A DNA stretch of 63,144 bases, the filler included, from Jimgerdemannia flammicorona (lineage: Eukaryota): the NCBI GenBank assembly GCA_003990765.1. It is 2 parts of 2 records of this genome, joined end to end, with 100 filler letters (N's around TTAATTAATTAA, not from the genome) between each part and the next. Parts side by side here need not be neighbours in the genome. Positions count along the whole stretch, not along the records: positions 31,627 to 63,144 come from RBNJ01000391.1; 1 more part is not named here. One strand, written 5' to 3'. Under the pieces are notes generated by a model. That model was not told the origin of the DNA. It searched no databases and saw only the letters and a list, made by a program, of their open reading frames with translations. The translations under genes were made by a program, and so were the position numbers. Positions 21,961-55,320 of the stretch are shown piece by piece. Position 1 is the stretch's first letter. The number at the start of each line of letters is the position of its first letter.

Positions 21961-22046
21961 AGTTGATTCTGGAGGTAACTCCTGTCCAAGGTTGGTCTTG
22001 TTCCAACTTCAGGAATGTGTTCTTTAGTGCCTTCTTGGTTGGTAAA

Positions 22047-22058: not shown

Positions 22059-22061
22059 AGT

Positions 22062-26815: not shown

Positions 26816-26901
26816 ACTTCCCCCCAGTGTGGTTCTCCCCTGGTGTCCCCGTCCCTTCTCGGATTCTGTTGTTGCTTCTGGTGCACCCTGAGTGGTTCCT
26901 C

Positions 26902-28830
26902 ATGCTGTTCCCCCTTCGTCTTTCCCAGTTGCTTGTCCCGAACTTTCGGGTTTATTCTTCTCTTGGAACACTTTTGTCTCCTCCTTTTTCTTCAGCTGAC
27001 TGCCCCCTTTCTCCCCTTCAAGTCTTTGTCTTATCCTTGGGTCCTTGCTTTGTTTTTCCTGCGACTCCCTCACAATTCTCCTTCACTGATCTGGCTCATC
27101 TAATATGTTTTCGTCGTGCTCTTGACCTTGCCATTTTCTTTCAAGATCGTGGTGAGATGCCCTCTCGCTATTTTGTTCCTAGCGATTGGGTCCCCCCTCC
27201 CAATGTCTCTTTACACTGCGTATTCCTCGACATGGCCTGCTCACTATCCGTTCCTGGACGAGCTCGCTCTTGCTTGGTTTCGGACCATGCCATGCGTACC
27301 ACGCTTAAATCGGTCAAGCAATTGCCTATGCATTTGCTCACAGTCACTAATAAGAATCAGGGTTTTGCACTTATTCCTAAGTCGCTCTACCTTAATGGCC
27401 TTTCTGCCCTCCTTCAAGCCATGGCTTATGAGCCTAGTGCTCTTGGATTGGATGAGATTCTCACTCTTCTTCGGGTTTCTCTGACTCATGCTAGATTGCT
27501 TTCGGATTCCCTGCACGCGAACCCTATTTTTAACTTCTTCCAGGACTCTTTGTCCTTCTCAGATATCTCTCTTCTGGTTTTCTATGCTCTTCCTAAAGTT
27601 CACAAGCCTACTTTGGCTTGGTGTCCTATTACGGCTGCCTACAGTTCTCCTACCACCGAGATTTCGAAGTGGTTATCCCACTTCTTTCTCTCCTGGATGG
27701 CTCTCTTACAACACCGTCTTGGGCCTGAGTATACTATTCTTCATGATACTCAGGAGCTCGCCCATCTCTGCTCCACCATTGTGTCTGTTCACCGTTTTTC
27801 CCATTTGGCCTCTGGTGACTTCTCTTCCTTCTATACTGCTATTCGTTTTGATGAGATCGATGATTGCCTTCGCTTCTTGAGTTCCTTGGTTTTTCCCTTG
27901 GATTCCCCAGTTTCGCTGGCTTCCATTGTTGAGCTTACGCTCCTCGTCTGTGGCTCTAATTATTTTGAGTCAGCCCTTGGCTCCTTTCACCAGACTTCTG
28001 GTATTGCCATGGGAACGAATTGTGCCCCCACTCTTACCAACCTCGTTGGCCTGGCCCATGAATTGTGTGCGTTACATGATATTACTTCACCTCTTTCCAT
28101 TGCGTTCCAGGCTGGGGATATCTTCTTTTGCTGATACATTGATGACTTTATTGCCTTCGCTGTTGCTGGTATTGATATCCCTAGTGTGTTCCTGGGTGTC
28201 TACTCTCCCCATCATTCTATTACTTGGGTGTGCGGTATGACTAGTATTCCCTTTTTGGACCTTTCCATTTCTCTTTCTCCTTTCCGAACTGTTGTTTATT
28301 CCCATTTTTCCCGTTCCCAATAGTTCCCTGACTTCTTGTCCAACCATCCTCATCGCACTCTTCTTGAATGTGTTCGTGGTGAGGCTCGTCGTCTTGCACT
28401 ATGCTGCTCCCATCATTCTGATTGGATGTCTGCTGTTCAGGTTCTTGGCAACTTCGTGGTCCATCGTCGTGCCTACCCTATTTCTATCATTCGCGATCTG
28501 CTTACTTCTGTTGAATGGTCTGTTGTTCGCTCTTCCCTCCTCTCTCCCCTTTACCCCCCCTCCCTTCCCTCTCTCCCTCCTTACCCTATCTGTACCCCCT
28601 CTTCTTTCCCACCCCCGATTCTCGTCGTACCATTTGATTGTGCTCGCTGGGTTGCTCAACGCCCTGATACTGTCCTGCACTCTTCTCTTTCACGCCATGG
28701 ACTTTCATCTCTTTCCTGACACCCTCTGATTGCTCGTTCGCGTCTTTCTTCTGTTTCTTCTTCAATCCATCGCTCTCGTTTTGCGTTTTCGTCACCTTCT
28801 GGTGCCTCCAGTTCTGCCGGAGAGGATTAA
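26902..28830 (+). pseudogene. PLE reverse transcriptase (~642 codons) with three in-frame stops and no endonuclease domain
   Basis: FYALPKVHKP..WCPITAAYSSPT, SGDFSSFYTAI, FHQTSGIAMGTNCAPTLTNL, *YIDD (likely CGA>TGA at 28132), IPFLDLSI and SNHP thumb-like region. One frame throughout, with stops at 28132, 28321 and 28717. Confidence 0.9.
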
Positions 28831-29327
28831 AAAACATCCTTGCCCCCTCCAGGGTCTCGCGCTCGCTCTGGGGTCTCGGCCTTACTCCGCTCCCCTCTGC
28901 TGCCTTCGGCCCCTCGCTTTGCTCAGGCTCGCTGCAGCTCGCTCCGTTTCGGCCTCATCCCTTGCTCGCACCACCCCTCCGGGGTCTGTGGATGTTTTTT
29001 AATCTCGATTTGGATTTGTTTTATTTGTGTTTGTTTGTGATTTTTATCCTGCAACTGGGATTGGCTCCCCCTTTATCTCTGCTTATCTCTGGTGGTCATG
29101 TGGTTCCTAATTCGGTTCGCCCCAAGTTGTGGCGTGTCCTCCCTTTTGGGACATCGTATTTTGTATATAAGGACCACGTTTTTACATGGCAATAAACGGC
29201 TGATGCATTTTCAGTTACATTCTTTGTTCATCCCCCTTATACACGCCTTTCCACATGTCTTCCATTCGCTTTGATACTGGCTCTGGGTTCACTCTCTTGG
29301 CTCCCGCTGGGCCTTCTTCCTCCTCTG
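28825..29327 (+). repeat. 3' pseudo-LTR
   Basis: Begins GATTAAAAAACATCC (overlapping the RT stop codon) and ends ...GGGCCTTCTTCCTCCTCTG. Confidence 0.92.
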
Positions 29328-29583
29328 AGTAGAGGACTTATATGTAAGACAGTCAGCTATAGAATTCCTATAAATAGTATTTAGTAATATTATATAATAT
29401 ATAATTTTTTTAAAAAAAATAATAAAGATAATTAGTCAGAAATCTATATAGAAATATGTATCTATCAAAATTTCTATATTTAATTAGTATAATTATTATC
29501 TACTATACTAATAGTAAAACTATATGAATACTTTTCAAAAATAGCTAGTAAAAAATTATTATCAACTATTATATATATATTTA
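29328..29583 (+). repeat. Right copy of the ~250-bp flanking duplication
   Basis: Near-identical to 24587-24838 (a few substitutions and one 4-bp indel). Confidence 0.92.
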
Positions 29584-32860: not shown

Positions 32861-34703
32861 TTTAGGTATACAAGAGAGGGGTTGTGGATGGTTTGTCTTC
32901 AACAATCGAGCGAACAGTCAAAGTGGCCACAGCTCGGAATTTCGGAGTACCCCCAGTGATCCCATCACACACTAAACCTTAATTTCGAGGACCAACCAAC
33001 ATCACCAGTGACGTTACTTTGACTAAACAGAAAGCGCCGATAGTGATAGTCGGCGCGAATTATTTTTAGATTGGCCACACATTACGGAGCTGAGCCGTGT
33101 GGTTTCCTGAACAGTGAGCTTCACTGCTGTGCTCTGAGCCATGCCATAGTATCTTCATTGTGTAGTTTGGCTGAGCACCGAGCTTTTGCCATGTAATTTG
33201 GCTGAGTGCAGTATTCAAAGTCACTTATTTAACTATAATATTATTAGTTTAAATTAATTGATATTAGAATATACTTAACTATATTTATATTTATAGAAAG
33301 TAATATATTAAAGTACTTAAATTAATTATAATTTTGATAATTAGAAAAGTATTATTTTCTACTATTATAATAGCTATTAAAAAACTATTATTAAAATTTT
33401 TGATAAAAGATTTAATATCAAATATTTAAAAAGAAAAAAGTTATAAATATTTAATAAAGATTTATACTAATAATTTCTTATATTTATAATAAATATAATT
33501 TTTATAATATAAGAAAATATAGATTAAAGTTAGTATATCTTTAATAATTTATAAACTAATTAATAAGTTTATTTATTTAAAAATTTAGAATATTTTATAT
33601 AGCTAAAATTAATATATATATTACTTTGATTTAAATATATTTTATTAAAATATTATCTAATTTTGAAGCTATAGAGTTTATTTATTTATTTATTATTTAA
33701 AAGTTATTATTTAAACCTTCTAATAAATTTAATATTATTAAAATTATTTTATTTTATTTTTATTAAAATATAATAAAAATATTTATTTAAATTAAATTTA
33801 TATTCAATTTGACTAATTCAAATAGAAGAATCTCTAACTTAATTTATTTGATAGTATTATTATATATTTTATAGTTATTTTAACTAGAGATCTATTTTTA
33901 AAATAGTTATATTATATAAAAATAAGAGATATACTAACTTTAAAATATTATATTTATCTTTTATATTAGTATAATATCTTTTATTAATAGGGGGTTTCAA
34001 AGTTAGTTATAAAATTCTAAATATTGAAAAAAATTTAATCAATCAGATTTAATTTAGAATTCTATACATATCTGACTGAGATTTAAACTTTCTTATAAAT
34101 TAGTTTATCTATAAAAAGATATATATTAAATTATTATTGAAAATATATCTTCTTCTATCTATTATAGTAAAGCTTATAAAGTGTATAAGATATCTAAAAG
34201 GTAGGAGAATGATAATATTGATAGAGAACTATTCTTAATGAATATTATTTTTAACTAAATTATATTAGAGATAAATTATATTAGATAAAAGAGAGATATA
34301 GAGAAGTAATAAAGCAGACTCTTTATAGAGAGATAGTTGGCCTTTAAAGGAAGCTAATATTTATTATTATAATAATACTGATATATATCTGGATAAGACT
34401 ATTAGATCTCCAGATTATCTATATTAAGGCTTAGAACTAAAGTGAGAATATAGAAGAGAAGATTTGAGCAAGAGATAGAGATAATATAGAGATAATAATT
34501 TAGAGTATACTTTGGGCTTTGTTCTTTATCAACTAATTGAATTTATATTAAATGAAAATTCCTATCTAATAATAGCTATTTTTAAAAAAAGATACAAATA
34601 CTAGGATATTCTATACATATCTAGTCTTTACTAATAGAACCTCATCTTAGCTGAGGTTTACAGCTGATAACTTAGGAGATAATAATATTACTGAGAAACA
34701 GAG

Positions 34704-34736
<33 letters not shown>

Positions 34737-35429
34737 GAAATAACAATAATAGCAATAATACTAATAGTAATAATAATATTAATGATAGTAATAATAGTAA
34801 TGATATTAATAATAATAATAATAATAATAATAACAATACTAATAATACTTCTCTTAGCTCTGAGAGGATACCAGTGAGATAGAAAGATGAGAAAGTATGT
34901 GGCTGGGTGATAGGAAAGAAGCCAATAAGACTTAGAGTATCTGACTACTCTCAGAAGAAATTAAAGCTCTTATTGAGTAATGTTTTTTTTGATAGAAAAT
35001 ATAGCAAAAAATGAGAGAGCAAAGGATGCTCTGAACTTCATAAAGAGAAAATAAATAGAGAAGTATAAACTAGCAAAAAAGATATTAGTAATAGAGAAAA
35101 TAAAGGCTAAGACTGAGAGAGCTTTTGTAAAGACTTTATTGATAAAATTATTAAGCAATCTGAGTATATTATAGGAGGATATCTTAGAGTAGCTAAAGGA
35201 TTTGTAAATATAAATTGATTTATATAAATATAAATATATTTATTATTAAAAGTATTAGATATAAATAAGCTTATATAAATTATTATTTTTTCTAATATTT
35301 TAGAGTGAGATATTTTATAAATCTTTAGTAATATTATCTTTTTTATATATATTGTATTTTCAAAGTTTTGCAATATATCTCACTCAAGGCCTCACTAAAC
35401 TTTCTAAGGCCTCACCATACTTTCCAAGA

Positions 35430-36200
35430 CCTCACTGTACTTTCTCTTTTCTAGTCTCATTTCAATACTTATTACTCATATATACTTCTTATTTATTTTA
35501 GTATCTCAACTATACTTTTTGAAGCCAGCAATTTAGTCAGATATATTTTAGATCTCTTTTCTAACTTTATCACTCAATTTAAGACCTTATTGCACTTTTA
35601 TGACCTTACTACATTTTCTTATTTCAATATATCTCACTCATTTTAGTACCTTGACTATACTTTCTACATATTTCAGCATCTTGACTATACTTTTTAGAGC
35701 CAGCAATTTAGCCAGATATATGTATATACTTTAGATCTCTTTTCTGACTTTATTACTCAATTTAAGATCTTATGTACTTTTCTAATCTCACTGTATTTTC
35801 TTATTTCATATATCTTACTCATTTCAGCATCTTGACTATACTTCTTATATATTTCAATATCTCAACTATACTTTTGGAATCAATAATTTAGCTAGATATA
35901 CTTTAGATCTCTTTTCTAGTTTTATTACTCAATCTAAGATCTCATATACTTTTTTGATCTAACTTATTTTCTTATTTCAATATATCTCACTCATTCTAGT
36001 ATCTTGACTATACTTACTTATTCTAACACTCTAACTATACTTTTCAGAGCTAGCAATTTAGCCAGATATACTTCAGATCTCTTTTCTGATCTCACTACTC
36101 ATTCTAAGATCTGATTATACTTTTTAAGACTTTACTGCACTTTCTCTTTTCTGGTCTCTCTCATTTCAATACATCTTGTTTATCTAGCACCTCAACTATA
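35430..36200. repeat. Degenerate tandem repeat, ~4 copies of a ~170-185-bp unit
   Basis: Anchor GATCTCTTTTCT recurs at 35551, 35734, 35906 and 36076, each preceded by a variant of CAATTTAGCCAGATATA. Confidence 0.8.
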
Positions 36201-38399
36201 CTTTATTCTACTCTATTTTCAACTACTATCTCTTTATATACCATTTCTTCTATCTAGGAATAAGATAATATATAGTTTTATACTAATATTTCTTCTACTT
36301 ATCTGGAAGTAAGACAACATATAGTCTTATACAGATATTTTCTACAAAATATTTTTTCTTCTCTTAATATCTAAATACTACCTTTATATTAATATTCTCA
36401 AAAAGCTCATAATAAAAAAAAAGTCAAAATATATATAAAATAGTTGAAAAAGATAAGAGAATATAATACTCAGATCTGAGATACATATATAGAATTTGCA
36501 GTCCAATAATTCACTATAAGAAGTAACTTTAAGCAGATCAGACTCTGATACATATTTGAGCCCTATGGACACCCTAGCTCTATACTATAGTACTGTACTA
36601 GCAGTACTACAAAGCAGAGCCAAGGAGGTAGTAAAGCCTAGCAAAAGTTCAAACTAGTACTACAAAATAAGATTGGTGGAGTTAGTAGAGGAAGTATGCA
36701 AAATTTATAACTCTCCACCAGTAGCAAAGAGCAGCTCCAAGCTACAAGCTAGTGCAGGAGTCCAGATTAGAGAGAGTATGCAAAATTTGTAGCCCAATGA
36801 CCTACTGTGAAAAATATCTTCAAGCAGTTGGACTCTAGTACAGATTGGACTCTAGTGTAGATTGAACTCTAGTATAGATTCAGGTCTTGTGGACATTCTG
36901 GCTCTATGCTATAGTATCATACTAATAATACTATAAAACAGAGTCAAGAGATCAGTAGAGTCTAGCAAAAGCTAAAAACTAGTACTACAAAATAGTTGTC
37001 TAACTCTTATAAAAGACTGTCTAATCTTTACAAAAAGACTGCCTAGCCTAATCTTTACAAAACTGCTCCATCTGTTAGTTCCAGGTCTTGATGAGTCTAT
37101 TATCTATTATGAGTACAACTACTATAGTATTTGAGCTCTCCTCAAAGATAATAATACCATAGAGGTCATGTGGTTGAAATAGGATAGCCATGTTGACTGC
37201 AAACAGGACCTCAAAACCATAGATGAGATTATACTAGATATTACTACTGTTCTCTCAAGTTGGGTCCTTCTTCTCTAGAATATAAAATATTACTAGAGTG
37301 ATATTACTATCTATATATATAGGTAGAGAAATATTATACTCAATGTATTCCAATGTGATACAAGTATATGGTTGAGTGAACTCTTAGCCCAGGATCTCAT
37401 ATTGTTAGATAGTACTAGAGAATATCTATTCTTTATCTAGCTCTAGAAGTCTTAGCTTGAAAATCTACTGAAATAAACAGTATCTTATCAATTCTTTTTG
37501 TATATAAGTGGGCAGAAACTCTCAGACTATATCAAAAAAAAGTCAAGCTTCTCACCTCATATGGTATGCTAAATTGTATCAAGAATATACATATAGCTAT
37601 ACTGAGAGTACTATTAAGCTAGTCTGCTGTTTACTCTAGCAATCTGCTCAAAGAACTCTAGATCATGGCTACCATTACTGTACAGATCATGTTATGCTTA
37701 CATGTAGCTTATTCTTTGACAATACTTTTAAAGTTTCAATAAGAATATAGAATTCTGTATATTTTTAGAAATTTAACAAAAATATATTAGTAAAAAAAAT
37801 CTCAAAAAAAAAAAAGATAAATGTGAAGGATTTTGGAAAAAAACTCTAGAAAATCCACTCTTTGCCAATATTGTAGTATATCTAATTCTCATCCAAACTC
37901 TCTCTCCTTACTTTTATACTCTCTTTTTCCTATCACTTGATATTTGATATAATTCTTGCAAATCTTATTAATATAGTAATAAAGCTTATTACCATAAAGA
38001 TTTCTTATCACCATCACAATAATCTCTCTATATTTATTAATAATGATATAGTTCTCTTTGTTATTGAGTACTCCAGTAGGCCAATGAACTTCTTGATTGA
38101 GAATAATTGGCTCTGATTAGAATATAGATCTCAAGCCTTAATAGTAATACTGATATTGTTCATATTAAATAACTTAGCCTTAAACTTTCTAATTTAATTA
38201 GATACTGAATATGATCAAACTTAGGTAACTTTGAATTCTCCTCTATAGTGAAACTGAGCCTTGATCTGAGTAGTGAACTGAGTTAAGTATGCAGATAGAT
38301 TATATGTATATATATAAGTATTATATAAGAGTTTTTAGGAAAGAATATATAAAAATAAAGTTAAATAAAATACAAAGTAAGTATTCAGAAAAAAAGCAT

Positions 38400-38475
38400 A
38401 AGAATAAGTTGTATGCAGATAAGTTGCATGCAGATGAGTTATATGCAGATGAGTTATATATAGATGAGTTATACA
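38400..38475 (+). repeat. 15-bp tandem repeat (GATRAGTTRYATRYA), ~5 copies
   Basis: Directly visible. Confidence 0.8.
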
Positions 38476-38724
38476 AGATTACTCATAAAGGCTTGCTTCT
38501 AATCTTTTTGAAATCTCCACTATATAATATATTGATTCAATAGCTCAGTCACCAAAAGTATATCTTATAACATTCTCCAGCCTTTCTTCATCTTGATCAG
38601 ATATTGCAAATAAAGTTGACAGATCTTGTTAAAGAGCTATAGACCTTGAGAGAAAGAGAAATAGTATAAAATTAACTTAGTCATATTATGGGAATTTAAA
38701 TATAGTGACAAAAAGACAATCTAT

Positions 38725-39380
38725 ATCTACTATTAGCTACTCTAAAAAGACTACTACATATGTAGCTATGAGGTCTATGAATTCTGAGATCTGAAGAATT
38801 ACTATAAATTATTACTGAAATTCTCTCTTATCTTCATTATTGTCATTGCCATTACTATCGCTATTACTATTGTCATCACTACCACTATTTTGGCTCTTAA
38901 TAAGTAGTTTGTATACTACCTATATAAGAAAAAAATTTAATATTATTAGTAGAGAGTACTTTTCCATTTTAAATATTCTCTCTTTTGATAATCATTAGAT
39001 AAAAAAATAAGTAAACCAATATATGATTAAGGGCTGCTATTTATTTATTTATGATATAGCTAGAGAAATAAAAAAGAATATTAGAGAACAAAGAAAGAGA
39101 GAATAAAGAAATAGAGAATAAAGAAAGTATAATATCACCAAAGATAAAAAGAGAGTGATATCATCAAAGATAAAGAAAGAGTGATATCACCAAAGATAAA
39201 AAGAGAGTAATATCATCAAAGATAAAGAAAGAGTGATATCACCAAAGATTTCAAGTGATCTAAATTAATTTAGATCAATTCAGATTAGATTATATAATCA
39301 ATCTGAGTTGATTTAAATCTATTATATGATAAATCCGAATTAAATCTCATCCAGATAAATTGCATTTATTAGGAGTACTA
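38725..39380 (-). mobile_element. Hypermutated paralogue of the 1-666 transposon terminus (the element extends further left)
   Basis: Colinear with 1-666, and differences are overwhelmingly C>T/G>A. Confidence 0.85.
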
Positions 39381-41200
39381 GTTGACTATCAAAGTTGGAT
39401 TCCTTACTCTTACTTTCAATCTTACATATCCTTATTGGAAGAATTTATAAGTTTCTGGAGAATTAGGGCTTGCTCAAGATTCTTAAGAAGAAGTTAGTAT
39501 TTAGATCTTTGAGATATTTTCAAGATGAGGTGAGTTAGGGTAAATTTTCTAGAGTTTTATAAATTTTTCCTACAATTTCAATAGTCAGAGACTGTTGAAA
39601 TTATAGAAATATAGAAAAAAGTTATAGAAAAAATTTGACCAATTACATTACTTTAAAATTCTTAAATTTTCAATATTTAGAATTCTATAACTAACTTTGA
39701 AACCCCCTAATACTTTAGAAGATATATTAAAAAAAACTATAAGTTTTTATATTTAGTATAAAATTAATTAGTAATATAATTTTTACTATAATATTAAGAT
39801 TGAAAAAGAATAAAACATTACTTGGTCTTATTATTACAATCTTTACTTATTATCTAGTTTCTTATTATTATAATTTTTTATAAATATATATAAAAATGAG
39901 TTATTTATATCAGCTTATTGAATAATATTTTAGCAATTTTTACTAAAGTAAATTTGAAGTTTACCAAAGTTGAGAAGTGGTAGAAATACTATCAGCTCAG
40001 AAAGAAGTTGAAAAGAAGCAGGCAGATAACATTTACAATTTAATAAAATATTAGAGTGACCGAGAGATCTAAAAATGCAAGACAAGCTGAGGGTTTCTTA
40101 ATTCTCTTGGCAGCAGCTGCATGAAATTCAGTGTTTAATTTAGATATTGTGTTATTTGATTATGATAACAAAACTGGAAGTTGTGTGGCCAATCTAAAAA
40201 TAATTCGGGCACCGCCGAGTTGTGACCTATCGACGCTTTAGAAACCCCTAACAGGAAGAAAGTCACCTCATGTGTGTACATAATCGATCCTAGTGGAATG
40301 AATATCCACACGTCACAGCTAAACATAGCACACCACAGATTAAGCCTCCTTTGTTACACACAAAGGCGCTTGCTTCGTACTTATCACCCCACTCTCGTCC
40401 TCTTCCTGCTAAGTTGCTTATTACCTATAGAAAGCCCAAATATTCCTATACCAATATGCACATACTCATTTAGAAGGGAATGGTAAAGTCACGCATAACA
40501 CATGATCCTCCGTTATCTTATCTCTGATCCAAGCGGAAAATATACGCGTGGGAAATCGGCAAAATGAAACCAACCGATCGACGTGATCGCTTGTGTTAAT
40601 CGAACTCGGTTGAGCTTGTACAAGCCGCAGCGACAACGATTCCAGACGTGAGATACATGTACATTGTGTATTGAGCAACGTGGCAAATAAAAATCAATGG
40701 CGAGCGAGGGGCAAAGGTTTGGTAATGAGGTTAGCGGTAATAAGGGCATTCAATGGTCTTGGCAAAAGCAACCTGATCCGACCCTCCGACTATCTAAAGC
40801 TTGACTCATCGTCAGTATACGTTCCGGCTCGGCGAGACACTACATCCGAACCTACGCTGCTCGGTTCCGCATATCCATCCTCCCGAGATTCCGAGACACC
40901 TAATTCATGCGTGCCGGAGTATCCAGAGCACCGAAAGAACGCGTACGCACATTAGTCATCCTACCCACATGACAGTGGAAGGGCCACATGATTCTGTCGT
41001 GCTTCATCCTTGATGCGGACGTAATAGTAGCTCTAGACGGAAATGAGTCTAATGAGTGGCATCAAGATCAAAGGCCAGAATCCTGGACGAGGGTACCAAC
41101 CAGGTATGGTATTGTGGCGCGTGATCTCTTGGCGTGGACAGAGAGCGTGACGCAAAATGCGTGAAGTCGTTTCTAGTCACGAAATCGAACAGAGCATCAG

Positions 41201-41237
<37 letters not shown>

Positions 41238-43522
41238 ACGCAGTGAGGTTCCTAACCCACTTGCCAAACTTCCGAAAACTCCGGGTGTCCCACGCCGGAT
41301 GGACTCAAAACGCTGTTGCATGATGGCGGAAATATACTTTCAAACGTTATGGCGGAAATGTATTTTCAAATGTTATGTCTCGTATCTCTCGTTCCGAAAT
41401 TCCGTGAAAAACAAAAAACAAAAGGTTTATCTCGTCTTTGGCGTTGTTGTCGTAAACGCGGAGAATCAATCCTCAACCCCTGAAACCGCGAGGGCCCAGA
41501 CAACCGGAGAGATGCCAATCCTAGCGTAGCCCGAAGGTATCACTACCAGAGGGGCCTGTGACATAGGCCTTCCCTCTCCCGATCCGTCGCACCGCAAGTA
41601 CAACGAATACAACGCAACAGTATGCATGCGTGTAGATCCGGATCCGGAACTGATCGCGCTGGCGTAACATATGTTTGAAATCCAAACCCCGATGGGCCAA
41701 CCCCACAAAAAAGGACGCCAAGCGGAACAATGGAGAGCCCTGAGTTTTTTTGACCTTCGGCCTCGGATCGGCTCGGAAGCAAATATTGTGGCATCGCCTC
41801 GAAAGGGCGTACTGAACCCAATTTGGATTCCCCGAATTGATGGACCCTTCACGTCATCAACGCCTAGCCAGATTTAGGTGGATGCGCAGATGCCTAGAAA
41901 GTGCTCGAACGGGTGAAGATTTATGTAGTACGGTTCAATGCCGTTGTTTATCCGAGACTTGGCAAAATAACTCTTTGTCAGGGAGCTCCGCGATTCCTGT
42001 ACAGCAACGCGATAAATCTCAACGTACAAGTCGGGGACTCAACTCCGTCTCACACATTGTTGTTGTTTTTTTTTTTTTTTTCGATCACCTGGTACGACAC
42101 TGGAATGATGTATTTTTCTTTAAGGGGCGTGACACAGTTTCCCTTCACAAAAGACGGCGTATTGAATATGACGGTTTTGTCCATCCCTGTAATAACCTGG
42201 ATCTTGGAAAGTAATATCGAATGGCCGAAATGGAAATTGCTCGACAGGTGACTGCCATCTGATCGGGTCTAATCCACATCTCTGACAATTCCGAAGCTCC
42301 GTCCATTGTGAACAAGCAATGTTTCATTGTGGATCGCGATTAACGGAACGGAAATCACATCATTCAGTCCCGCAGGAGTGCCGGAAATAGGTAAACCCGT
42401 AATGCTTATGCAACGTTTCGATCGACAGGAGATGTGGTGGAAGATGATGTCTTATCCTATTAATTTGGATTCGAGTGGTGTTATACTGGACCTTGTGCTC
42501 CGAATGTTTTTCCTTCACGCTTACATTTGGGAATAGATCTCGTAAACAATACCGTTCGGTATGTTGCCGTAATTGTCTCGTCTGAGCAGACAATTAGACA
42601 TTGTAAAATTTCGGCTTTGCTATCCATATGTTCCGATCAGCAGACCCACCATTAATGGCACATTCCCCTGTTGCTATTCTCGCATTGCCAAGCGATTTTT
42701 CGCGGCGGGTCCGGTCATTGTTACTACATAACTATTGCCACCCGATCACACTCGGTGCGTACGTGTCGTCTGGGAGCACGCTTTGATCCCGTGGACCTGG
42801 ATTCCACTCCGGATATCCCCATGACGACGGACTACGACGCCGGTTATACCCGTGGGGCTATGCCTGTTGTGCAGTTGCTGAGGCGCAGCCTCGCTTTTCA
42901 GGCGATGCTAGATCGAAACCATACTCAAAATCGAAACCATGCTCGTGATAGTAGCCATCTTGTTTGCTTTGCTTTTTGGGGTAGGAGGGAGATCTTCCAC
43001 ATGTGGCTTTCGCTTATGTGTGCACGGCAGCGATCCCGAATATTCCTATCCGTCGGAAAAAAAAAAAAAAAAAAAAAAGATGCAGCTGATACGCCACCGT
43101 TATTCAGCGAGCTGAGGTATAAACCTTGTCGGAACCGTATGAGATCCAGTAACTAAATTAACAGGTTCCGTGCCAGGAGTATTGCTCCAGATTCCAGTTC
43201 TTCCAATGCTACGATGGAGCCAACCTTCACACCCCGCGCTTGGCTTTGTGGCGAATGCTTCTATAGTAAATTCTCCACCACGGTCTATTTTCGGCCTATT
43301 AAATTCTAACAGGCGCAGCCCTAGAAATTTGGTGTGACCCTGCTGCGTCATGGTGATTCCGCGACGTCTCCGACTGGTTACACGAACCAGATATGGCCCG
43401 TTCCACAAGCCCGAGCTTTTGGGCGAGGATCCGATGATCAAAAAAAAAAGAGAGAACAAATAAAAGAGGTCACCCCCCCAAAATTCAAATCACAAAATCC
43501 ACCTCACTTACCTCATTACATC

Positions 43523-44641
43523 ATGCCAAAGGATCAGCGCACCCCCTCCCCACCCCAAACACCCCGTAGTTCGCCTACATCTTCACCTTACCTCAAAACC
43601 CAAGAGAAGCCAAGCGACGTCCAGCGCCGCCACCTCGAGCAAATGAGCCAGGCATATCGTGGCGACTATAGCCAAGGCATGCTTCTGCTGCACGCTATCA
43701 GGAGGAATGGCAAGCGAACCCTGACCGAGCAAGCTATTGGTGGGTCTTAATACTGGCTCCATATTTTAGTCTATTGGAAAATATCGAGTTGATCTAACAT
43801 CATTCATAAAACATGCTCTATCTAGCTGAGACGACAAACCACATTCTGCGAATTTGGGAACCCAATACGGAAGTGGATCCTGCCCGTGCCGACGCTTTGG
43901 TTAAATTTGTCAAATTCTTCGTTACAAAGACCCAGTTTCCTCTCGAGGAAATGGCTCTCGAGCAGGCCATCATCATCTCGTGCCTGAACCGCTCCGCGGT
44001 GCCTGTCGTCTGCCCCGTCATTACTTTGGCGCTCGCGACGGTGTACATTGATAGGTTGAGGAAGGTGTGTAGGAAATTTCCCGGTTGGTCCTAGCTTTTT
44101 GTGATCATGCGAACTAATTAATTGACACGGTCAATCACGTCCATTGCAGAAATACCCAACCACTCAAGGTGCCAGCGGATGTACTCAACGCCTATTCTTG
44201 ATGTCATACATTATGGCCGCCAAGTTCATTCATGCCAGTTTGGGTACCTTGATCGCCTCATCAACTCTTCTGCACAACGGCCACCCAATTGTGCGCGATC
44301 GCGTCAAGATGGCCGCCGCACCCTCATGCCTGTTCACGCCGATGCAGACACTCGCGTCGACCACCTCGCTTTTTGCCTCCATGCTCCCGCGCACGACGCC
44401 TCAGGAACTTCACAAGATGGAGCTCGAGTTCCTGCACTTCCTCGATTCAGATCTGACCGTGCACAACGCCAGCGACCTCATGGGCCTATGGGAGAAGTGC
44501 GTTGGCATCGAACAAGTCGTACCGTTCCAGCGCATATCCATCTCGTCGCTGCTCGCCGACGAGGCCGAAAGAATGAAAGTTGAGGACGACGATTCGGGCA
44601 ATGAAGGTGATGACGAGATTGAGGAGGTTCCGAGCTGGTGA
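43523..44641 (+). CDS. Pcl/Pho80-like cyclin-domain protein
   Basis: Exons 43523-43739, 43826-44064 and 44150-44641. Cyclin-box motifs ITLALATVYIDRLRKK, QRLFLMSYIMAAKF and ELHKMELEFLHFLDSDL. Confidence 0.82.
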
Positions 44642-46161
44642 AGGTTCAGTTTCATTTTGGCGTTGGTACAATCGGAAATTGTTGTCGCTCGGTCGCCCCT
44701 TTCCCCGGCGGTTCTTTAGTGATAGCAATGACTATTTACCGAGCTATAATGTGGACTGAATCGATACTTTTCGGATATACCGAACCTGTTACAACAGACA
44801 ATTCCATTCCTTTTCTCTCTCCTTCATTGTAGATAATTTTGTTACCCTCAGGATACAAAATGTACAAAGGTTTATAGATCCTGCAATGCCCTAGATTACA
44901 TGCTTGACTCGTCAGTTTATGCTCCTCCATCGTTCTTTTTTCTTCGTAATATGGCCTGAATATGCGACATCTAAGTGTCAAGCAATCCATAAAACTGATT
45001 GCAGTATTTCTTTCTTTCTTTCCTGAAACAATTCCGAAACAATTCCGCTTGTAGCAATGTTATAAAATTATGTTTGCACGTACTATAATGAACATGAAAT
45101 ATGCCATAATATTTTATTATTATTTTTTATTTATTGGCATTTTGCAAAGTGAGCATGTCCATTTCGGATCCACCAAGTAACAAGTCAGCTGGCGACACCA
45201 TTTTAGTACTATTACTGAATTTAGCACGCCCCTCCCCAAAAGAACCAGAGGTGTAGCCGTGACCGCACCGGGTCCGACGCCACAGCCTTTCATTTAAAGC
45301 TGACTCACCGTCTCGGCAACACAGCCGCTGAGTAAAACAGAGACCAGCGGCAACGATTTCCTTTAGATTCGATTCCTATCATCCTGCACTTCCACGCTTT
45401 CAGCCTGATTATTTTTACGGAAGGCACGGGGCTCGTGGTAAAAATATCAAAATAGACGACGCACCTTGCGGTCAGATGCTGCGCCTCAAACTGTGGTGTG
45501 GCGCATGCCAGCCAAACGTGGCGGAGAAGCTTTTTTAGAAGAATGAGGCTAAACTACTGTTTCCTACCTTGGGAAGTTTGCATTTACCTCCAGCCTAACG
45601 TACCCTGGTCACATTGTTTTTCGCAGCCGCGTTGATTTGACGATTTGACGATTTGACGCCCCCACCATCCCCTTTCGATGCAACCGAGTTTGCGTCCTTT
45701 TTTGGGTCTTCGGTCCAGCCGGGACGGTCAACGAAGCGGGAGTCGGCGATATGGCTATTTTGACTAGAAATCAAGTCCTAAACGGGAGTTCTCAGACCGG
45801 AGGGCATGGATTGTTTGTCTCTTTACCAAACTGTCACACGGTGGACACCCCTCCATCTGAATTTGGTACGATAATCTGGGACAAATTCATATTGAGATTC
45901 CCATTGAACCTGTCCAAACCATCTCCTAACCCCTCGGGCTAGGTTTGCTTGCTCTGATACCGATACATCCTCTTGTGTATTCACGGACTACATTTCAATG
46001 TTATGCACAGTTCCTCATCTAGCCACTAAACAATAGTATACATTCATATCCGCAAAACATCCCCATGAACTGCTATGCAATAAAATCAATAAAATCTTAT
46101 AAAAATGTACTCGGTCCAGCCTCCTTTTCCTTCACGATTCACATCCTGCCAACTCTCATCA

Positions 46162-49100
46162 TCACCCTGTCGACCTCGGTTGAAAAAACAGTTCCCTCTT
46201 TCTCCGTTTAGTCTCCAGTTGATCTCGCTCCATCTCACCAGCTGCCCCCCTCTTACTGTCCGTGCCACCCTGCGGTACCGTTACTCCACCGTTCGGAACT
46301 CTGTCTCTTCGCCGTTCTTCATCCTGCAATGCTACCGCGAAGTGGAAGTCCAGGTGCTCGAGGACCTCGGATTCGGAAACTTGGACATTGCATATTGAGC
46401 AGCGGAGATCAGCGTCGAACTGAGGTCGCAAGATTGAGATAAGAGTCGGTTCGGAGCCGAAATGTTCATGTGAATAAGTTGCTAGCGGTGTAGCCTCTCT
46501 CGCTACTCCCTTGTCTCGTCCTTTAAAAAAATGTCGAATGTCCTTCCGCTCGCCTTTACGCACCAAATTTCCTGGCTGTTCCTCGACACCCTTTGCCACG
46601 GAACTATCGCGCTCCTGTTTCCCGCGCACCAAAAACGCCTCAATCCCGCCGCTCCTGCTACCCTGCCCAGAAGATAGCTGGGGCGACTTCGCACGTCCTC
46701 TGTCATAACTTGCGGTCTCTTTGCTCAATGCGTCATCCTCTTTCCCACTAGCATCCTCACTCAGCATCTCAGCTATTATCATTTCGGTAGCCACCTTTTC
46801 CGCTGCTGGCCCCGTTATCGCTGATTCGCCCTGGGCATGATCTTGCGTCATGGCCGTGGCGCCACGGACAAGGAATCTCGAGATATCAGACCCCTCGGCA
46901 GCGCCATCCTTTTCGAACATACCAGCAGTGAGGGAGAAATTGATCAAGGGAAAATGATTATTTGTGGTGCGGAAGAGCTCGAGGGCTCTTTGAGCGAGGA
47001 TATCTATTGTTTGAGTTGTAGTTGAAAGGTCAGGCAATAGAAAATAACGGCAACTTTATAAAGAGACACGACATTACCTGGCGATTTCAGGTCAAGACGC
47101 CTGAACATCGGACAAGATTTGGATCGTGGCGCGGATTCGGACATGACTCTAAAGTGTATCTGTATGCCGTGCGACACACCCAAAAATTAGTCTCGAACGG
47201 CGATATGACTTCGTTATTTTACCCTTAGTCCACAATCACGTCCTTTCGGTTGTCTCGACACACCAAACGAAATAACACCCACTCCCATTGTCTTCGGCCA
47301 CCGCGCGTGAGTCTCGAAATCGAACTGGATCCGCGTGAAGACCTCTGCGGCGAGAACGTTGAGCCAATGTTCGAGGGTCGCCATGTCTCGCACAGGTGGG
47401 CGGAAGGACTTGGCGGCCATCATCGATTTAGGGATATTTCGGATCGTGACTGTTTGTGTCCATGGGATGTTATGGGATGGAGAAACCTCTTCAGAATAAA
47501 TTGGTAACACATGTGCTTACCATCTTCAAAGTCAATGCCACGACAAATGTTGTGCAGCCATATCCCAGTGGCTTGGCCAAATTTGGATTGCAATTCTTCC
47601 TTCGGATACTTCCTAAAAGTCGTGAATTAGTAGGCAATCCATTTCGTATTGATATTATACGAAGTTCCCTGAACGCCTAAGAATTCAATTTCGAAACCCG
47701 CCCTAAACGCCCTTCGCCACTTACCACATATCTCCTGCGGTACGAATGCCCAGCTCGGTCTCGACTTCTTCACCAAGCTTACCGCCGAGGTTTCGAATTT
47801 TGGTGAAAGGCATATTGCGCATGAAATCGATGACGGCACAGTTGCGCATAATGGTCTGCCGTACGTAGTAAAAGAAGATACGATTGGGAATTTTGCGTCA
47901 ATTAACCCTTTGGGAATGCTACGAATAGGTCGACTAGTAATCACGCATCATAAATAAAGTACCTGTTTGTTGGGCTTGTTGAGGCCAGAACATATTTTGG
48001 CTAAGGCCTTGTTGTGGGTTACGCCTGCATGTAATGTGGTTTCAATCGTGTTGAGTATATGCAACATCGACACACCAAGCTGTTTCACTGTGACAAATCA
48101 ATGACATGAAACTAGAATCACAGCACTCCATACCTGCTGAGCAAGTGTATCCGAGTTCGTCAAACACCGCCTTTCGAATCTCGCGCGCTATCTCGGCCGC
48201 CATCGCCAGCTGCACGTCGTCCCAGTTGACTTTGGGTAATGCCTTCTTGGCCTCTTGGAGCCCATCCGTCCCCGCCCCATCTTTGGCCCTCTCCAAGCCT
48301 TCCGAACAATCCGCTCGTACCTCAACCTTCCCGCCCGCTTCTACACCCACTTCCGACTCCACTTTCGTCCACTCTTCCTTTTCCACCTCTGCGCCCCCAA
48401 CCACAACCCCCAACTCGTCCCATTTTACCTCCACCGGACACCCGATCTCCCCGTCCGGCCTCCCCTCCACCGCAAACAGATGCCCGTATCGCTCCGTCAG
48501 CCGCTGATTTGCGCAGTCGGTCACGTCCATAAACGCTTCGTCAATGCCTGCTTTTTGCAGTTTGGCGCCCAGGCTACCGCAGAAGCGCGCAAAAACGCCG
48601 AAGATCAGCGCCGATGCGCGTCGGTACGGCTCCAGCGACACCTTGTGCGTGGCGTAATGAGGGGAGGGGTGGTAGCGGGGCTCGGGGTCTTGGTTCGCGT
48701 AAGTGGCGACATGAACAAGGATGACGTCTATGATTTGAAGGGGGCGAACGCATGATTTCGTTTCAGAATATACAAAGAGGCACAACATAAAAGACTAAAC
48801 TAGATCAGAGCGTACGCACCAGGGCATTTCTTTTTCGCTTCTTCGATTACACAATGCCGTTGGATACCGGCTTTCCTGGCCGCATAGTTTACTATAATCA
48901 TTATTTCGCGATTAAACATATTGGATTGTGCGCCGCTGCATTGAAAGATCACCTCTATATAAATCGGTCGAACCTGCAATCAAACCGTTCCATTGCTGGA
49001 CAGCGATAGGGGAGTCCGAAGAGAGTCCTAAGCGCAGCTGCTCTGGCATTTGCGAGGACAAATTATATGAACGTCAGTGGTCAAACGCGACATAGCAAAG

Positions 49101-49340
49101 CCAATAGGCCAGTTTAATAACTCTCACTAAGTAAAATGGGACTCACCGACTTGACAATAGAAGCAATCTTCAAGTTCGCGTCGAACGCGTTTCCGACGAA
49201 GCGAATGTTGTTTATTTTTTGGCAAAGTTGAAGTAATTGCATTGCGGCTTAAATAAGTCAACAGTGGCAAACTTACCAAGATCTATGTGCAAAATGCAGC
49301 GCTGGCCTTTGAGCTCCTTGGGCAAGCGTAGCTTTGACAT
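46162..49340 (-). CDS. RAD30: DNA polymerase eta (Y-family), multi-exon
   Basis: RCILHIDL-DCFYCQV, AVQQW, VNYAAR, KVSLEPYRRAS, KAGIDEAFMD, LGYTCSAG and KSMMAAKSF. UBZ finger CSICN...EHLDFHFA and a C-terminal FF PIP-like motif. Confidence 0.92.
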
Positions 49341-49922
49341 GAGAACTCGCGTACGACAAGAACGAAACGAAGTGCTGTGACGTCACCGGGGTTCGAAGTC
49401 ACGCACAGCCCAGAACAGCCCAGAGCCAAGAAGTCGCCAACAGAAAGGTAAAATTAACTCGGGTGTCGCCATGGATATAAGGTCATGTAGCACACGGATT
49501 CATTCCGTTGAAGTAATCCAGTGTGCGGATCTAGAACATTGAATATACATCTCGGGCCAAAAATTAGCTAAGCAATTCCTCTCTTATATATAACCTACAC
49601 CGATGGCTCTGGCGACATTACAGCAACACAGTCCTGCAATCATGAGTCATATGTACATCCCTGAGGTTCTTGCCCGCTCCAATCCCACTGGTGCCCAACC
49701 GGCGTCCCCCAAATGTCACAAAATGAAACCCCGTCTTGTTTCTCTGGGACTACTCGCCCATGTCGACGTTGATGAAGCTTGCACAGAAACCGTTGTCCGC
49801 ACGCAGCATGAACTCATCCGGCGGCGACGCACCAGTGATCCATGCAAGGATCCTCGCAAGCGCCAGAAATGTAAGCATTGGATGGCAGGATTGCAGGATC
49901 CACCTAGTAAGTGAGAAGAAAT

Positions 49923-50021
49923 GTTGTCGGTTGTCATTGTCGGAACTGCCTTCAATGTTGTCGGTTGTCATTGTCGGAACTGCCTTCAAGGTTGTCGGTT
50001 GTCATTGTCGGAACTGCCTTC
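49923..50021 (+). repeat. 34-bp tandem repeat x3 (GTTGTCGGTTGTCATTGTCGGAACTGCCTTCAAK)
   Basis: Three near-perfect adjacent copies without spacers. Confidence 0.95.
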
Positions 50022-50203
50022 CGACGCCGATTTCGTTGATCCGGACGTCGATCCGGAACCCATGTACTAATTGATAATCCAATTACCTTTTCTAGTCGCA
50101 AATTGGGTTCCTGAATACTGGCAGCAAGGTAGCTTACACGCTTCATGCACTTGATTGCAGATAATTTGGTGGCAAATATCTTAAACTTCGTATATTCAAA
50201 TTA

Positions 50204-50573
50204 ATGACTCCACCAGCACCAGCCATTGCTACTGATGAAAGCCAGATCACACAGCTGTCAGAACTGATGGCGAGCCAACAGAATGTCGAATGGGATACCA
50301 CGACGCACCGATCACTTAATCAGCCATCGGAACCTTTCCATGTCGATCCGCACGTGCAATACCTCGCTAATGGCAGCCCATTTCCATTCTCCTTTAACGA
50401 CACAGAGCTTGAGTTCTTGCAGACAATTCTTAAGAGGGACCAAGGTAAGCATGGCCTACCTATTTAACTCTATTTGTTGTGATTGGTTATTAAGGGTTTC
50501 CTTCCGCATGCTCACTCGTTTTTTCCTACCCGACGATAGACACGCTATGGGCCTCGTATCCGTACGTTCAGTA
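50204..50573 (+). CDS. Possible small hypothetical protein (or 3' exons of one)
   Basis: ORF from 50204 with a GTAAGC donor at 50444 and an AG acceptor near 50539 giving DTLWASYPYVQ*. No recognisable domain. Confidence 0.3.
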
Positions 50574-51421
50574 AGGTTTACCATTCCCACAAGACACGTA
50601 CTTCCATTTTAATTAATGGCGGTTTAAGTCGGCGACACTGGCGAGGCTCAGGATACAAACATCTATAGGCGTTTTCTCATACTCTCTCTTGGACAATAAG
50701 AAATAATAGGTATTAAAAGAAATATTTGCTTTCTCCGGGATTCTTTTTGGATGGAAATTCCGTTTTGTGCAAAAAGGAAACCGTGCTAGGATATTTTATG
50801 CTCTTCATTGTAAATTTTTAAGGTCTTCGCTTGTATGTATGAATCCATTAAGGTTATTGAATATTCATTATGTATGATATGGTACATTTGTGCTGTTTTA
50901 CTCGGTTAATTAAAAGCTCGTGGTGGAAGTCACTTCTCGTTTGCATTGGCGATGTGAGTGCTCTGTGGCCTGCCAGTGTCGAAGGTCGCGATCATGTGTA
51001 TTGAAATTACTTATACACACGACGAATTGCACTCGACATAGAGCGTGGCCACACCGCGCAAGGAGCTTTGTCCACCGCAAAGCGCATTCCAATCAATAAA
51101 AGCCCGTGCATGCTATTGGCCGCGGGTTCAGGGGAGCAACCCGTTGCTTCTTCCCGATCAGGTCGGTGGCTTGGTAACATGGCCAAGGAGTCAAGGGGTT
51201 CAAATACGGCGGAAGGCCCGTTCTTGGCGATCCGGTCTCGAATTCCCACTATTGTCAATCTCGCCTGCGGACAGAACCCGGGAGCCACGAAAAACTCGTC
51301 ATTTCCTACACGGGTTCACTAGACCGAGGCGCAACATAACAGCAAATATCAACCCTTCCCTGCTTCAAGACATAATCTCACTCTTTATCCATCATACTAA
51401 TCTCAAACAAACAAGCACAAT

Positions 51422-51931: not shown

Positions 51932-52171
51932 ATATGTATACCCACTCCCCAGTTTTAAATTGTATCATAGTTATTATAGTTCTCTTTTCTTCTCTTTCTA
52001 TATGCTTGACTGTCCTTCCGCCTCTGTCACTATTTTCTCTGACCGGTCAGAAGCAACAAACCATAAACCATAATTTTCAATCCGCATTGGTGTTTGTGTG
52101 CGCAAAGCCACCCAATTCTCCAATTCTGCCGTTCTGTACTGTCTCTCATCAACCCGAGCTGACCTTTCAAA

Positions 52172-55320
<3,149 letters not shown>

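What the first reader, a model, noticed from the sequence alone, without database searches (positions are those of the whole stretch)
38725..39380. Paralogue pair reveals RIP-like hypermutation at both CpG and CpA
Seen: positions 1-70 (ATCTACTATCGGCTGCTCCAAAAAGGCTGCCGCGTAC...) versus 38725 onward (ATCTACTATTAGCTACTCTAAAAAGACTACTACATAT...) differ only by transitions. These include CG>TA double hits, CA>TA, TG>TA and some GG>GA. Older nested elements approach pure AT with sharp boundaries (~33210, ~40140, ~62200), while adjacent genes stay CpG-rich. Known: RIP (CpA>TpA) is established in Pezizomycotina, and simple 5mCpG decay would not drive TpG on to TpA. Inference: if this is a Mucoromycota genome, it has a repeat-targeted mutator or non-CpG methylation system outside the lineages where RIP is accepted.
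Basis: partly seen in the sequence, partly recalled or inferred. Interest (0 to 1): 0.72.

Follow-up and report, generated by a model that had tools for sequence, protein, structure and literature searches.

The report
Methylation-type erosion of fungal transposons
In the early-diverging mycorrhizal fungus Jimgerdemannia flammicorona, transposon copies steadily lose cytosines to thymine (fastest before G, then before A and C, hardly at all before T) while neighbouring genes do not, which looks more like the scar of transposon-targeted DNA methylation than like classical repeat-induced point mutation.

Summary
Both stretches are the right end of a hAT-like DNA transposon, on two contigs of Jimgerdemannia flammicorona (Endogonales, Mucoromycota). 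In 30 young copies C>T reaches CpG 11.6%, CpA 2.6%, CpC 1.5% and CpT 0.3%, against T>C 0.26%. The window's old copy has 402 C>T, 20 T>C and 40 transversions in 1548 sites. One rate set from young copies predicts the middle-aged copies closely and the old ones roughly; a CpG-only model fails. Most other repeat families follow a similar order; unique genes do not.

Signs of classical RIP are absent: CpG beats CpA fivefold, young copies show no strand coordination, linked repeats carry no extra load, a gene-side transposon end is spared, and no RID was found (weak search). The order matches published Dim2-type methylation of Zymoseptoria transposons, and three DIM-2-like genes are present.

Best reading: DIM-2-type methylation of transposons with steady 5mC>T decay; no methylome was seen. 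A 2025 survey scored this species 'no RIP'; my searches found no published spectrum. This scan noted the same pattern on at least eight other pieces of this genome.

The parts
1..666 (+). Right end of a young copy of a hAT-like DNA transposon (element about 6.3 kb; terminal inverted repeat of about 14 bp at 653-666); almost unmutated
   Evidence: 95-97% identical to the best 40 scored copies; all end at the same base; the inverted end is seen at the far side in L179, L188, L190; CpG 5/80, CpA 0/84
36486..39381 (+). Old, eroded partial copy of an older subfamily of the same transposon; holds the flagged 38725-39380
   Evidence: Matches other old copies L073, L075, L080, L081 at 75-82%; C>T 402/857, T>C 20/691, 40 transversions
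37060..37500 (-). Broken cargo gene resembling a TET/JBP 2OG-Fe(II) dioxygenase, inside the old copy
   Evidence: tblastn 51% to the open piece in young copy L066, with stops; Atlas hits 0.92 (PF20515) and 0.89 (PF12851); no Pfam match directly
33053..33207 (+). Left terminal inverted repeat (33053-33081) and spared, GC-normal end of an outer repeated element, next to a gene
   Evidence: 29-bp arms 97% complementary with 40182-40210; copies in CpG-free surroundings lost C where the window kept it (L112 10:1, L115 4:0)
33208..33990 (+). Inner part of the same outer element, eroded to 6-12% GC
   Evidence: Window T/A where L136/L128 and L125 keep C/G: 35:2, 26:1, 25:2; those copies are 35-37% GC
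33985..39712 (.). Nested element bounded by a second inverted-repeat pair (33985-34030 and 39667-39712)
   Evidence: 46-bp arms, 96% complementary
40182..40260 (-). Right terminal inverted repeat and spared end of the outer element, beside the gene-rich block
   Evidence: L112 differs by 15:0 and L115 by 9:1 C>T, while 4 other copies differ by 0-3
13700..22868 (-). LTR retrotransposon (LTRs 13700-14504 and 22064-22868, 91% identical), used for the linked-repeat test
   Evidence: 70 transitions, 1 transversion between LTRs; CpG 8/8, CpA 30/111, CpC 8/65, CpT 4/110; protease, RT and integrase-like peptides read by eye on the minus strand
24587..29583 (+). Young retroelement with terminal repeats, second linked-repeat test (an earlier scan note calls it Penelope-like; not tested here)
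   Evidence: Repeats 92-98% identical; same transition load in repeated and internal parts vs L078
31527..31626 (.). Spacer of N and a short linker joining contigs C390 and C391; not biological
40260..62050 (.). Gene-rich unique DNA used as control: polymerase eta-like gene (IMS and UBZ domains), GH47 mannosidase, isocitrate dehydrogenase, FGGY kinase
   Evidence: Pfam; spliced RNA contigs and allele differences; CpG o/e near 1
62200..63144 (.). AT-rich tract (8-20% GC) after a CpG-retaining repeat end; probably another eroded element, not traced to a GC-richer copy
   Evidence: RNA contigs with loose ends at 62058-62191

Best explanation
Transposon-rich chromatin in J. flammicorona is methylated at C5 by DIM-2-type enzymes, most at CpG, less at CpA and CpC, hardly at CpT (inferred). 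Methylated cytosines turn into thymine steadily, one at a time and on either strand, by deamination that is poorly repaired (inferred). Each copy therefore loses CpG first; TpG and CpA left behind are hit again through the CpA rate, which gives CG>TA; over long times the copy sinks towards 10% GC (pattern shown). The target is set by the chromatin domain more than by sequence homology (suggested by few cases). Shown: taxon, spectrum, confinement to repeats, age-graded progression, presence of three DIM-2-like genes. Inferred: methylation itself, the enzyme responsible, and passive deamination.
For: Spectrum in 30 young copies: CpG 598/5141, CpA 140/5345, CpC 86/5727, CpT 13/4231; T>C 47/18397; 33 transversions in 38841 sites. 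By site: 157/176 CpG, 77/173 CpA, 42/172 CpC, 6/131 CpT and 10/601 T sites changed in at least one copy. Rates from young copies, scaled by time only, give 0.56/0.26/0.15/0.03 and CG>TA 0.18 against 0.58/0.27/0.15/0.045 and 0.17 in 3 middle copies. CpG highest and CpA, CpC above CpT in most of 13 other family clusters (exceptions: clusters 6 and 10 in part); 61% of 678 sampled 500-bp windows have CpG o/e under 0.3. Control in unique genes: 20 transitions, 7 transversions; CpG 6, CpA 6, CpT 5, CpC 3 (Fisher P about 1e-4). Z. tritici transposon methylation with Dim2: CG 43-61%, CA 10-22%, CC 3-8%, CT under 0.01% (PMC8016269 section 8), close to the rate ratios here (1: 0.20: 0.11: 0.02). Three DIM-2-like loci C8187, C11271, C3657. 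Best PDB match 9baq/9bap, E 1e-38, vs DNMT1 1e-25 (that these entries are Neurospora DIM-2 is recalled). The C8187 protein groups with an annotated Apophysomyces Dim-2 and Trichoderma proteins, apart from DNMT1 and CMT. Same-strand neighbours 390/810 vs 405 expected. Linked repeats carry no extra load. Gene-side end spared.
Against: No methylation data and no functional test. CpG runs at about 50 times the T>C rate, above the 10-15 times recalled for mammals, so an enzyme-assisted step is not excluded. Old copies show more CpC and CpT loss (0.36, 0.15) and fewer T>A (0.007) than the model at T=28 (0.28, 0.09, 0.017). Non-CpG changes in the 3 middle copies lean to the same strand (207/370 vs 187, P 0.015), and events within 100 bp exceed all 500 permutations (725 vs 674). 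The 30 young copies were the closest of 1141 candidates, which trims variance and weakens the dispersion test; CpG dispersion was mildly raised (P 0.027). A TDG/MUG-like glycosylase gene exists. The control rests on 27 of 83 differences (40 shown, 13 in a misaligned block dropped, 43 not shown), mostly coding and unpolarised. The tree is a quick one with long outgroup branches and lacks C11271 and C3657.
Confidence: 0.62

Rival explanations
1. Enzyme-assisted mutator: the DIM-2 paralogues, or a partner, both methylate and actively deaminate cytosines in heterochromatic repeats during growth or before meiosis, at a low dose per cycle, like the Dim2-dependent mutation of Z. tritici or the DIM-2 branch of Neurospora RIP.
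For: CpG about 50 times and CpA about 10 times T>C; per-type transversions only 0.0004. Three DIM-2 paralogues. Weak same-strand and 100-bp clustering signals. Precedents: PMC8016269, bioRxiv 115501.
Against: Both precedents mutate CpA specifically: over 98% of C>T at CA with CG spared in Z. tritici, 'very strong preference for CpA' in Neurospora. Here mutation follows the methylation order, CpG first.
Confidence: 0.24
2. True RIP: a RID-like enzyme detects duplicated DNA before meiosis and mutates it, on top of ordinary CpG decay.
For: C>T confined to repeats, CpA elevated, AT-rich relics with sharp edges. RIP indices were reported outside Dikarya in Zoopagomycota (PMC11105155, passages). A weak RIP of about one hit per copy per cycle would look clock-like.
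Against: No RID-like gene among the methyltransferase loci found; RID reported as confined to Pezizomycotina. CpA dispersion is Poisson (chi2 29.6 on 29 df) and strands are random in young copies, whereas one Neurospora cross gives up to 108, or a mean of 175, changes. Linked repeats not hit harder: 6.6-7.7% vs 7.6% internal; LTR vs internal 9.3-11.0 vs 8.8, 8.2-9.7 vs 11.2, 13.4-13.5 vs 15.0, and 21 vs 15.8% on 166 sites. About a thousand candidate copies exist, the best 40 at 95-97%.
Confidence: 0.08
3. Ordinary CpG decay plus a general AT-biased mutation acting for a long time on unselected DNA.
For: CpG is the dominant class, and genes are shielded by selection.
Against: The CpG-only simulation gives CpA 0.07 and CG>TA 0.05 at T=28; reaching CpA 0.40 needs T>A 0.14, about 19 times the observed 0.007. 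It cannot separate CpA from CpT eightfold. Differences in unique DNA are spread evenly over contexts.
Confidence: 0.03
4. A single-strand DNA deaminase of APOBEC type, or the transposon-borne TET-like enzyme, causes the changes.
For: The element carries a TET-like cargo, and oxidised 5mC could be mutagenic (inference).
Against: No strand-coordinated clusters within 10 bp (142 vs 139). The 3' base dominates the context. DNA transposons and retroelements are hit alike. PF08210 found nothing (weak).
Confidence: 0.03

Closest known systems
Dim2-dependent transposon methylation and C>T mutation in Zymoseptoria tritici (PMC8016269; passages and section 8 read)
   Same: Confined to transposons; DIM-2 family enzyme; context order CG > CA > CC >> CT for methylation, with ratios close to the mutation ratios here
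   Different: There the mutations are over 98% at CA and CG is spared; here CpG is the main mutated class. There the dependence on Dim2 was shown by experiment; here it is inferred.
RIP of Neurospora crassa: RID branch and DIM-2 heterochromatin branch (bioRxiv 115501, PMC12543289; passages and sections read)
   Same: C:G>T:A in repeats, AT-rich relics, CpA elevated
   Different: CpG first, no bursts or strand coordination in young copies, linked repeats not favoured, no RID found, young high-identity copies abundant in a 231-Mb genome
CG and CHH methylation of transposons in Phycomyces blakesleeanus (PMC11258239, PMC7862722; passages read)
   Same: Same phylum; DIM2 and two DNMT2 genes; methylation almost only in repeats, CG above non-CG
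   Different: Phycomyces has one DIM2 and a DNMT1; here three DIM-2-like loci and no DNMT1 detected. The passages read report no mutation spectrum for Phycomyces.
CpG-biased C>T in transposons of basidiomycetes and Tuber (PMC4352252, passages read; PMC3318451, listing only)
   Same: CpG-first hypermutation attributed to methylation followed by deamination; Tuber shows CpG then CpA
   Different: The basidiomycete cases are CpG only and tied to Masc2/DNMT1; Tuber has RID. No Mucoromycota terms in that paper.

Membership tests
Canonical RIP | C:G>T:A transitions confined to repeated DNA | tested here: met
   Young copies 884 transitions vs 33 transversions; unique genes 20 vs 7
Canonical RIP | CpA is the preferred target | tested here: not met
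   CpG rate 0.132 vs CpA 0.026
Canonical RIP | RID/Masc1 methyltransferase gene | tested here: inconclusive
   PF00145, TIGR00675 and two protein searches gave three DIM-2-like and DNMT2-like loci only; no RID sequence was available as query, few candidates were scored, and the assembly is in 35354 pieces
Canonical RIP | Many changes per event, coordinated on one strand (strand feature recalled) | tested here: not met
   390/810 same-strand vs 405 expected; CpA dispersion P 0.43 in a trimmed sample; weak signal in 3 middle copies, P 0.015
Canonical RIP | Closely linked duplications hit harder than unlinked ones | tested here: not met
   Two elements, five partner copies; four show no consistent excess, one shows 21 vs 15.8% on 166 sites
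Canonical RIP | Homology alone sets the target | tested here: inconclusive
   A repeated end is spared beside genes and eroded in two copies in CpG-free surroundings; few copies, and short ends can also escape RIP
Canonical RIP | Acts in premeiotic nuclei | not testable with these tools
   Needs crosses or lineages
Z. tritici-type Dim2 mutator | CA-specific mutation with CG spared | tested here: not met
   CpG is the most mutated class in every age group vs PMC8016269
Z. tritici-type Dim2 mutator | Dependence on Dim2 during mitosis | not testable with these tools
   Needs mutants or heterologous expression
DIM-2 methyltransferases (genes at C8187, C11271, C3657) | RFTS-like, BAH and C5-methylase domains with catalytic PCQ motif | tested here: met
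   P0121: PF00145 E 2e-24, BAH and RFD below cut-off, DUF7893; motif seen for C8187 and C11271, not inspected for C3657
DIM-2 methyltransferases (genes at C8187, C11271, C3657) | Groups with DIM-2, not DNMT1 | tested here: met
   Quick tree of 20 rows, SH-aLRT 100, long outgroup branches, C8187 only; summed tblastn scores favour the Trichoderma query over DNMT1 for all three contigs: 162 vs 113, 217 vs 115, 112 vs 91
DIM-2 methyltransferases (genes at C8187, C11271, C3657) | Methylates transposons in vivo | not testable with these tools
   No methylome seen
hAT DNA transposon (the repeat) | Short terminal inverted repeats and hAT transposase | tested here: met
   Inverted ends; Atlas 0.94 to a cluster with PF05699 on 53% of members, 8 of 10 best hits in the family; Pfam direct scans blank
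hAT DNA transposon (the repeat) | 8-bp target-site duplication | tested here: inconclusive
   No copy with both clean flanks was held; in L081 the right end abuts another copy

The most novel reading that the evidence does not exclude
An expanded set of DIM-2 enzymes, without RID and perhaps without DNMT1, acts in this Mucoromycota fungus as an active, low-dose mutator of heterochromatic repeats with a CpG-first spectrum. This would be an ancestral, RID-independent form of RIP-like defence older than Dikarya, opposed by TET-carrying transposons.
Probability: 0.2. Interest if true: 0.8.

Novelty: new variant of a known kind. Interest (0 to 1): 0.46.

Why it matters
A kingdom-wide screen concluded that RIP-like signatures are confined to Ascomycota and scored all 30 Mucoromycota, this species included, 'no_rip' (PMC12543289, S14 table). 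That screen contrasts repeats with all non-coding DNA on scaffolds over 50 kb, which has little power where most non-coding DNA is repeat (inference). Direct comparison of copies shows strong repeat-confined C>T erosion here.

If the methylation reading holds, the mutation spectrum is a readable fossil of the methylome of a poorly studied fungus, and it places the CG > CA > CC >> CT preference of DIM-2 before the split from Dikarya. It also makes testable whether DIM-2 alone, without RID, can wear down transposons, a candidate precursor of RIP. It warns that positive RIP indices outside Dikarya may reflect methylation decay. The parts (DIM-2 in Endogonales, non-CG methylation in Phycomyces) are known, which limits the surprise.

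Tried and rejected
Sequencing or damage artefact: rejected, because the changes are context-specific, age-graded and absent from genes on the same contigs.

Shared ancestry of the old subfamily as the source of the AT richness: rejected. Per-site derived fractions among old copies are broad, few sites are fixed (10 of 207 CpA), and 153 subfamily-difference sites were excluded in the model test.

Plant-like CHG effect: none (CCG 0.010, CAG 0.028, CTG 0.005).

Flank effect on young hAT copies: untestable, since 28 of 29 flanks were CpG-poor or missing.

DNMT1: a DNMT1-like query and PF12047 found only the DIM-2-like contigs; not proof of absence. DNMT5 and RID were not searched with their own sequences. 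The extra hit on C1744 proved to be DNMT2. PF20515 and PF08210 found nothing (uninformative). A PDB search with the TET-like piece gave only WD40 noise.

Run X3 covered 3 of 30 bins and gave no differences. Classical RIP indices are mostly near zero or negative even in eroded stretches. A full-length copy with both flanks was not obtained, so the target-site duplication stays open.

Literature: ten searches found no paper giving a mutation spectrum for Endogonales repeats. The library lacks most subscription papers; the original genome paper and Bewick 2019 were not seen. Of PMC12543289's supplements, files 13-19 were not searched and the k-mer table S13 is too large to read.

Full report
What the window is. 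It joins two contigs, C390 (1-31526) and C391 (31627-63144), through a spacer. An FGGY kinase exon at 60781-61710 is 100% identical to a Jimgerdemannia flammicorona protein, with Umbelopsis and Bifiguratus next at 62%. Other genes carry IMS and UBZ, GH47 and Iso_dh domains.

What the pair is. Both stretches are the right end of a repeat with 1141 first-look candidates, of which 40 were scored at 95-97% and 30 fetched. A search with the old copy gave 929 candidates, 40 scored, 30 fetched. All young copies stop at the same base, and the inverted end lies about 6.3 kb away. A transposase piece scores 0.94 to hAT clusters in the Atlas, though Pfam scans were blank. The element also carries a TET/JBP-like piece, broken in the window at 37060-37500. 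TET-carrying transposons, hAT included, are described from Basidiomycota and Pezizomycetes; that paper does not contain the word Mucoromycota (PMC12730594, passages).

The observation. Positions 1-70 and 38725-38794 differ at 16 of 70 sites, all transitions. Over 330 bases there are 86 C>T/G>A, 3 reverse transitions and 7 transversions. I aligned all held copies to one real young copy and took the majority of young copies as the ancestral state at 3613 of 5008 positions. Thirty young copies give CpG 598/5141, CpA 140/5345, CpC 86/5727, CpT 13/4231, T>C 47/18397 and 33 transversions. Three middle copies give 0.58, 0.27, 0.15, 0.045. Thirty-three old copies give 0.73, 0.52, 0.36, 0.15. Counting sites, not copies, 77 of 173 CpA sites and 42 of 172 CpC sites changed, against 10 of 601 T sites. 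Relative to T>C, CpG runs at about 50 times, CpA 10, CpC 6 and CpT 1.2.

Clock or burst. A neighbour-dependent simulation with the young rates, scaled only by time, reproduces the middle copies: 0.56, 0.26, 0.15, 0.03, CG>TA 0.18 and T>A 0.0055, against T>A 0.0061 and CG>TA 0.17 observed. It fits the old copies at CpG, CpA and CG>TA (0.70, 0.515, 0.42 vs 0.73, 0.52, 0.45), but under-predicts CpC and CpT and over-predicts T>A about twofold. A CpG-only model gives CpA 0.07 and CG>TA 0.05 at the same time. In young copies, neighbouring changes fall on the same strand 390 of 810 times (405 expected), and CpA counts are Poisson (chi2 29.6, 29 df). Against this reading: non-CpG changes in the middle copies are 207 of 370 same-strand (187 expected, P 0.015, one of four tests); events within 100 bp exceed all 500 permutations, though not within 10 bp; and CpG dispersion has P 0.027. 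Rates vary along the element, with CpA 10/930 in the last 250 bp against 40/1080 just inside, which may explain the 100-bp excess. The young set was chosen for closeness to the query, which trims dispersion.

Generality and control. Among 1356 pairwise matches in 33 clusters outside this family, the order CG > CA > CC > CT holds in five of six identity bins; in the smallest (5 pairs) CC exceeds CA. In 13 clusters with enough sites CpG leads and CpT is usually lowest. Of 678 windows from 40 sampled contigs, 61% have CpG o/e under 0.3 and 26% over 0.7. The window's LTR pair differs by 70 transitions and 1 transversion. For unique DNA I laid three runs on 42300-62200. Of 83 differences 40 were shown, and I dropped 13 in one misaligned block. 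The remaining 27 are 20 transitions and 7 transversions, spread CpG 6, CpA 6, CpT 5, CpC 3, unlike the transposon spectrum (P about 1e-4). This control is small, mostly coding and unpolarised.

Homology or neighbourhood. Closely linked repeats are not hit harder. In the element at 24587-29583, transitions against L078 are 7.6% inside and 6.6-7.7% in the repeats. In the LTR element three partners show LTR and internal loads within about 3 points in either direction, and one shows 21 vs 15.8% on 166 sites. The boundary at about 33210 lies inside a repeated element with inverted ends at 33053-33081 and 40182-40210. Its inner part is eroded (35:2 and 26:1 against GC-richer copies), while its gene-side ends keep cytosines that two copies in CpG-free surroundings have lost (15:0, 9:1, 10:1, 4:0). 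These are few cases, but they fit a chromatin domain better than homology sensing.

Candidate enzymes. Family and protein searches found DIM-2-like genes on C8187, C11271 and C3657, and DNMT2-like genes on C58/C2181 and C1744. The C8187 protein has C5-methylase, BAH and RFTS-like regions, matches PDB 9baq/9bap better than DNMT1 (their identity as Neurospora DIM-2 is recalled), and groups with Endogone, Mucorales, Glomeromycota and Trichoderma proteins in a quick tree of 20 rows. A DNMT1-like query found only these contigs. RID and DNMT5 were not searched with their own sequences. A TDG/MUG-like gene is present (motif reading recalled).

Comparison with print. In Z. tritici, Dim2 methylates transposons at CG 43-61%, CA 10-22%, CC 3-8% and CT under 0.01%, but the mutations it promotes are over 98% at CA. 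Neurospora DIM-2-mediated RIP also prefers CpA strongly. Here mutation tracks the methylation order, which favours plain decay of 5mC over a CA-specific mutator; the high CpG rate keeps the active version alive. DIM-2-like homologues in Endogonales and RID only in Pezizomycotina are stated in a preprint. Phycomyces transposons carry CG and CHH methylation. Badet and Croll scored this species no_rip, with 23 non-coding-enriched and 0 repeat-enriched k-mers. RIP indices were reported in Zoopagomycota with caveats. PMC13297926 and PMC7928374 were read as passages; PMC8497519, PMC3318451 and PMC4014442 were seen as listings only.

Verdict. The feature is real and genome-wide: a CpG-first, DIM-2-patterned erosion of transposons in a Mucoromycota fungus. 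It works like RIP in outcome but fails the RIP features that could be tested. My searches found no published description of this spectrum, but its ingredients are known. The scan has noted it on at least eight other pieces of this genome and the TET-like cargo on two; my reading was stated before those look-ups.

Noticed in passing
window 37060-37500 (-); L066:3496-3942 (+): The hAT-like family carries a TET/JBP-like dioxygenase piece with an HxD...H motif, open in young copies; TET-carrying transposons are described only from Dikarya in the paper read. Earlier scan notes saw dead copies.
   Followed up: partly
G000 C8187, C11271, C3657: Three DIM-2-like paralogues and no DNMT1 detected; Endogone has matching proteins P0123 and P0286, so the expansion may predate the genus.
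   Followed up: partly
G000 C58/C2181 and C1744 (L192): Two DNMT2-like genes, as reported for Phycomyces.
   Followed up: yes
window 670-13500: Nested LINE-like fragments with a strong GC skew (about 0.3-0.6 over 12 kb, G-rich plus strand); not tested whether inherent or strand-biased decay.
   Followed up: no
L163:1900-3584 vs 5326-6999 (cluster 17): A repeat cluster with a low transition/transversion ratio (1.8) and CpC above CpA; it may be a gene family or an old subfamily split.
   Followed up: no
L066-based alignment, +2 context: Finer preference: CAA is hit least among CA (0.015 vs 0.028-0.036) and CCT most among CC (0.028 vs 0.010-0.016), the same in all three age classes; a testable signature for the enzyme.
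   Followed up: partly
window 29785-30061, 23841-24116, 33442-33802, 62559-63004: AT-rich stretches that match their own reverse complement or each other; likely eroded foldback elements, some matches may be low-complexity noise.
   Followed up: no
L081:7170-7230; all 29 young flanks: One copy ends exactly at the start of an older copy, and nearly all young copies sit in CpG-poor DNA, suggesting insertion preference for, or survival in, other transposons.
   Followed up: no
G000 C34337 (L177): TDG/MUG-like glycosylase fragment; the only PF03167 hit of 2 candidates.
   Followed up: partly
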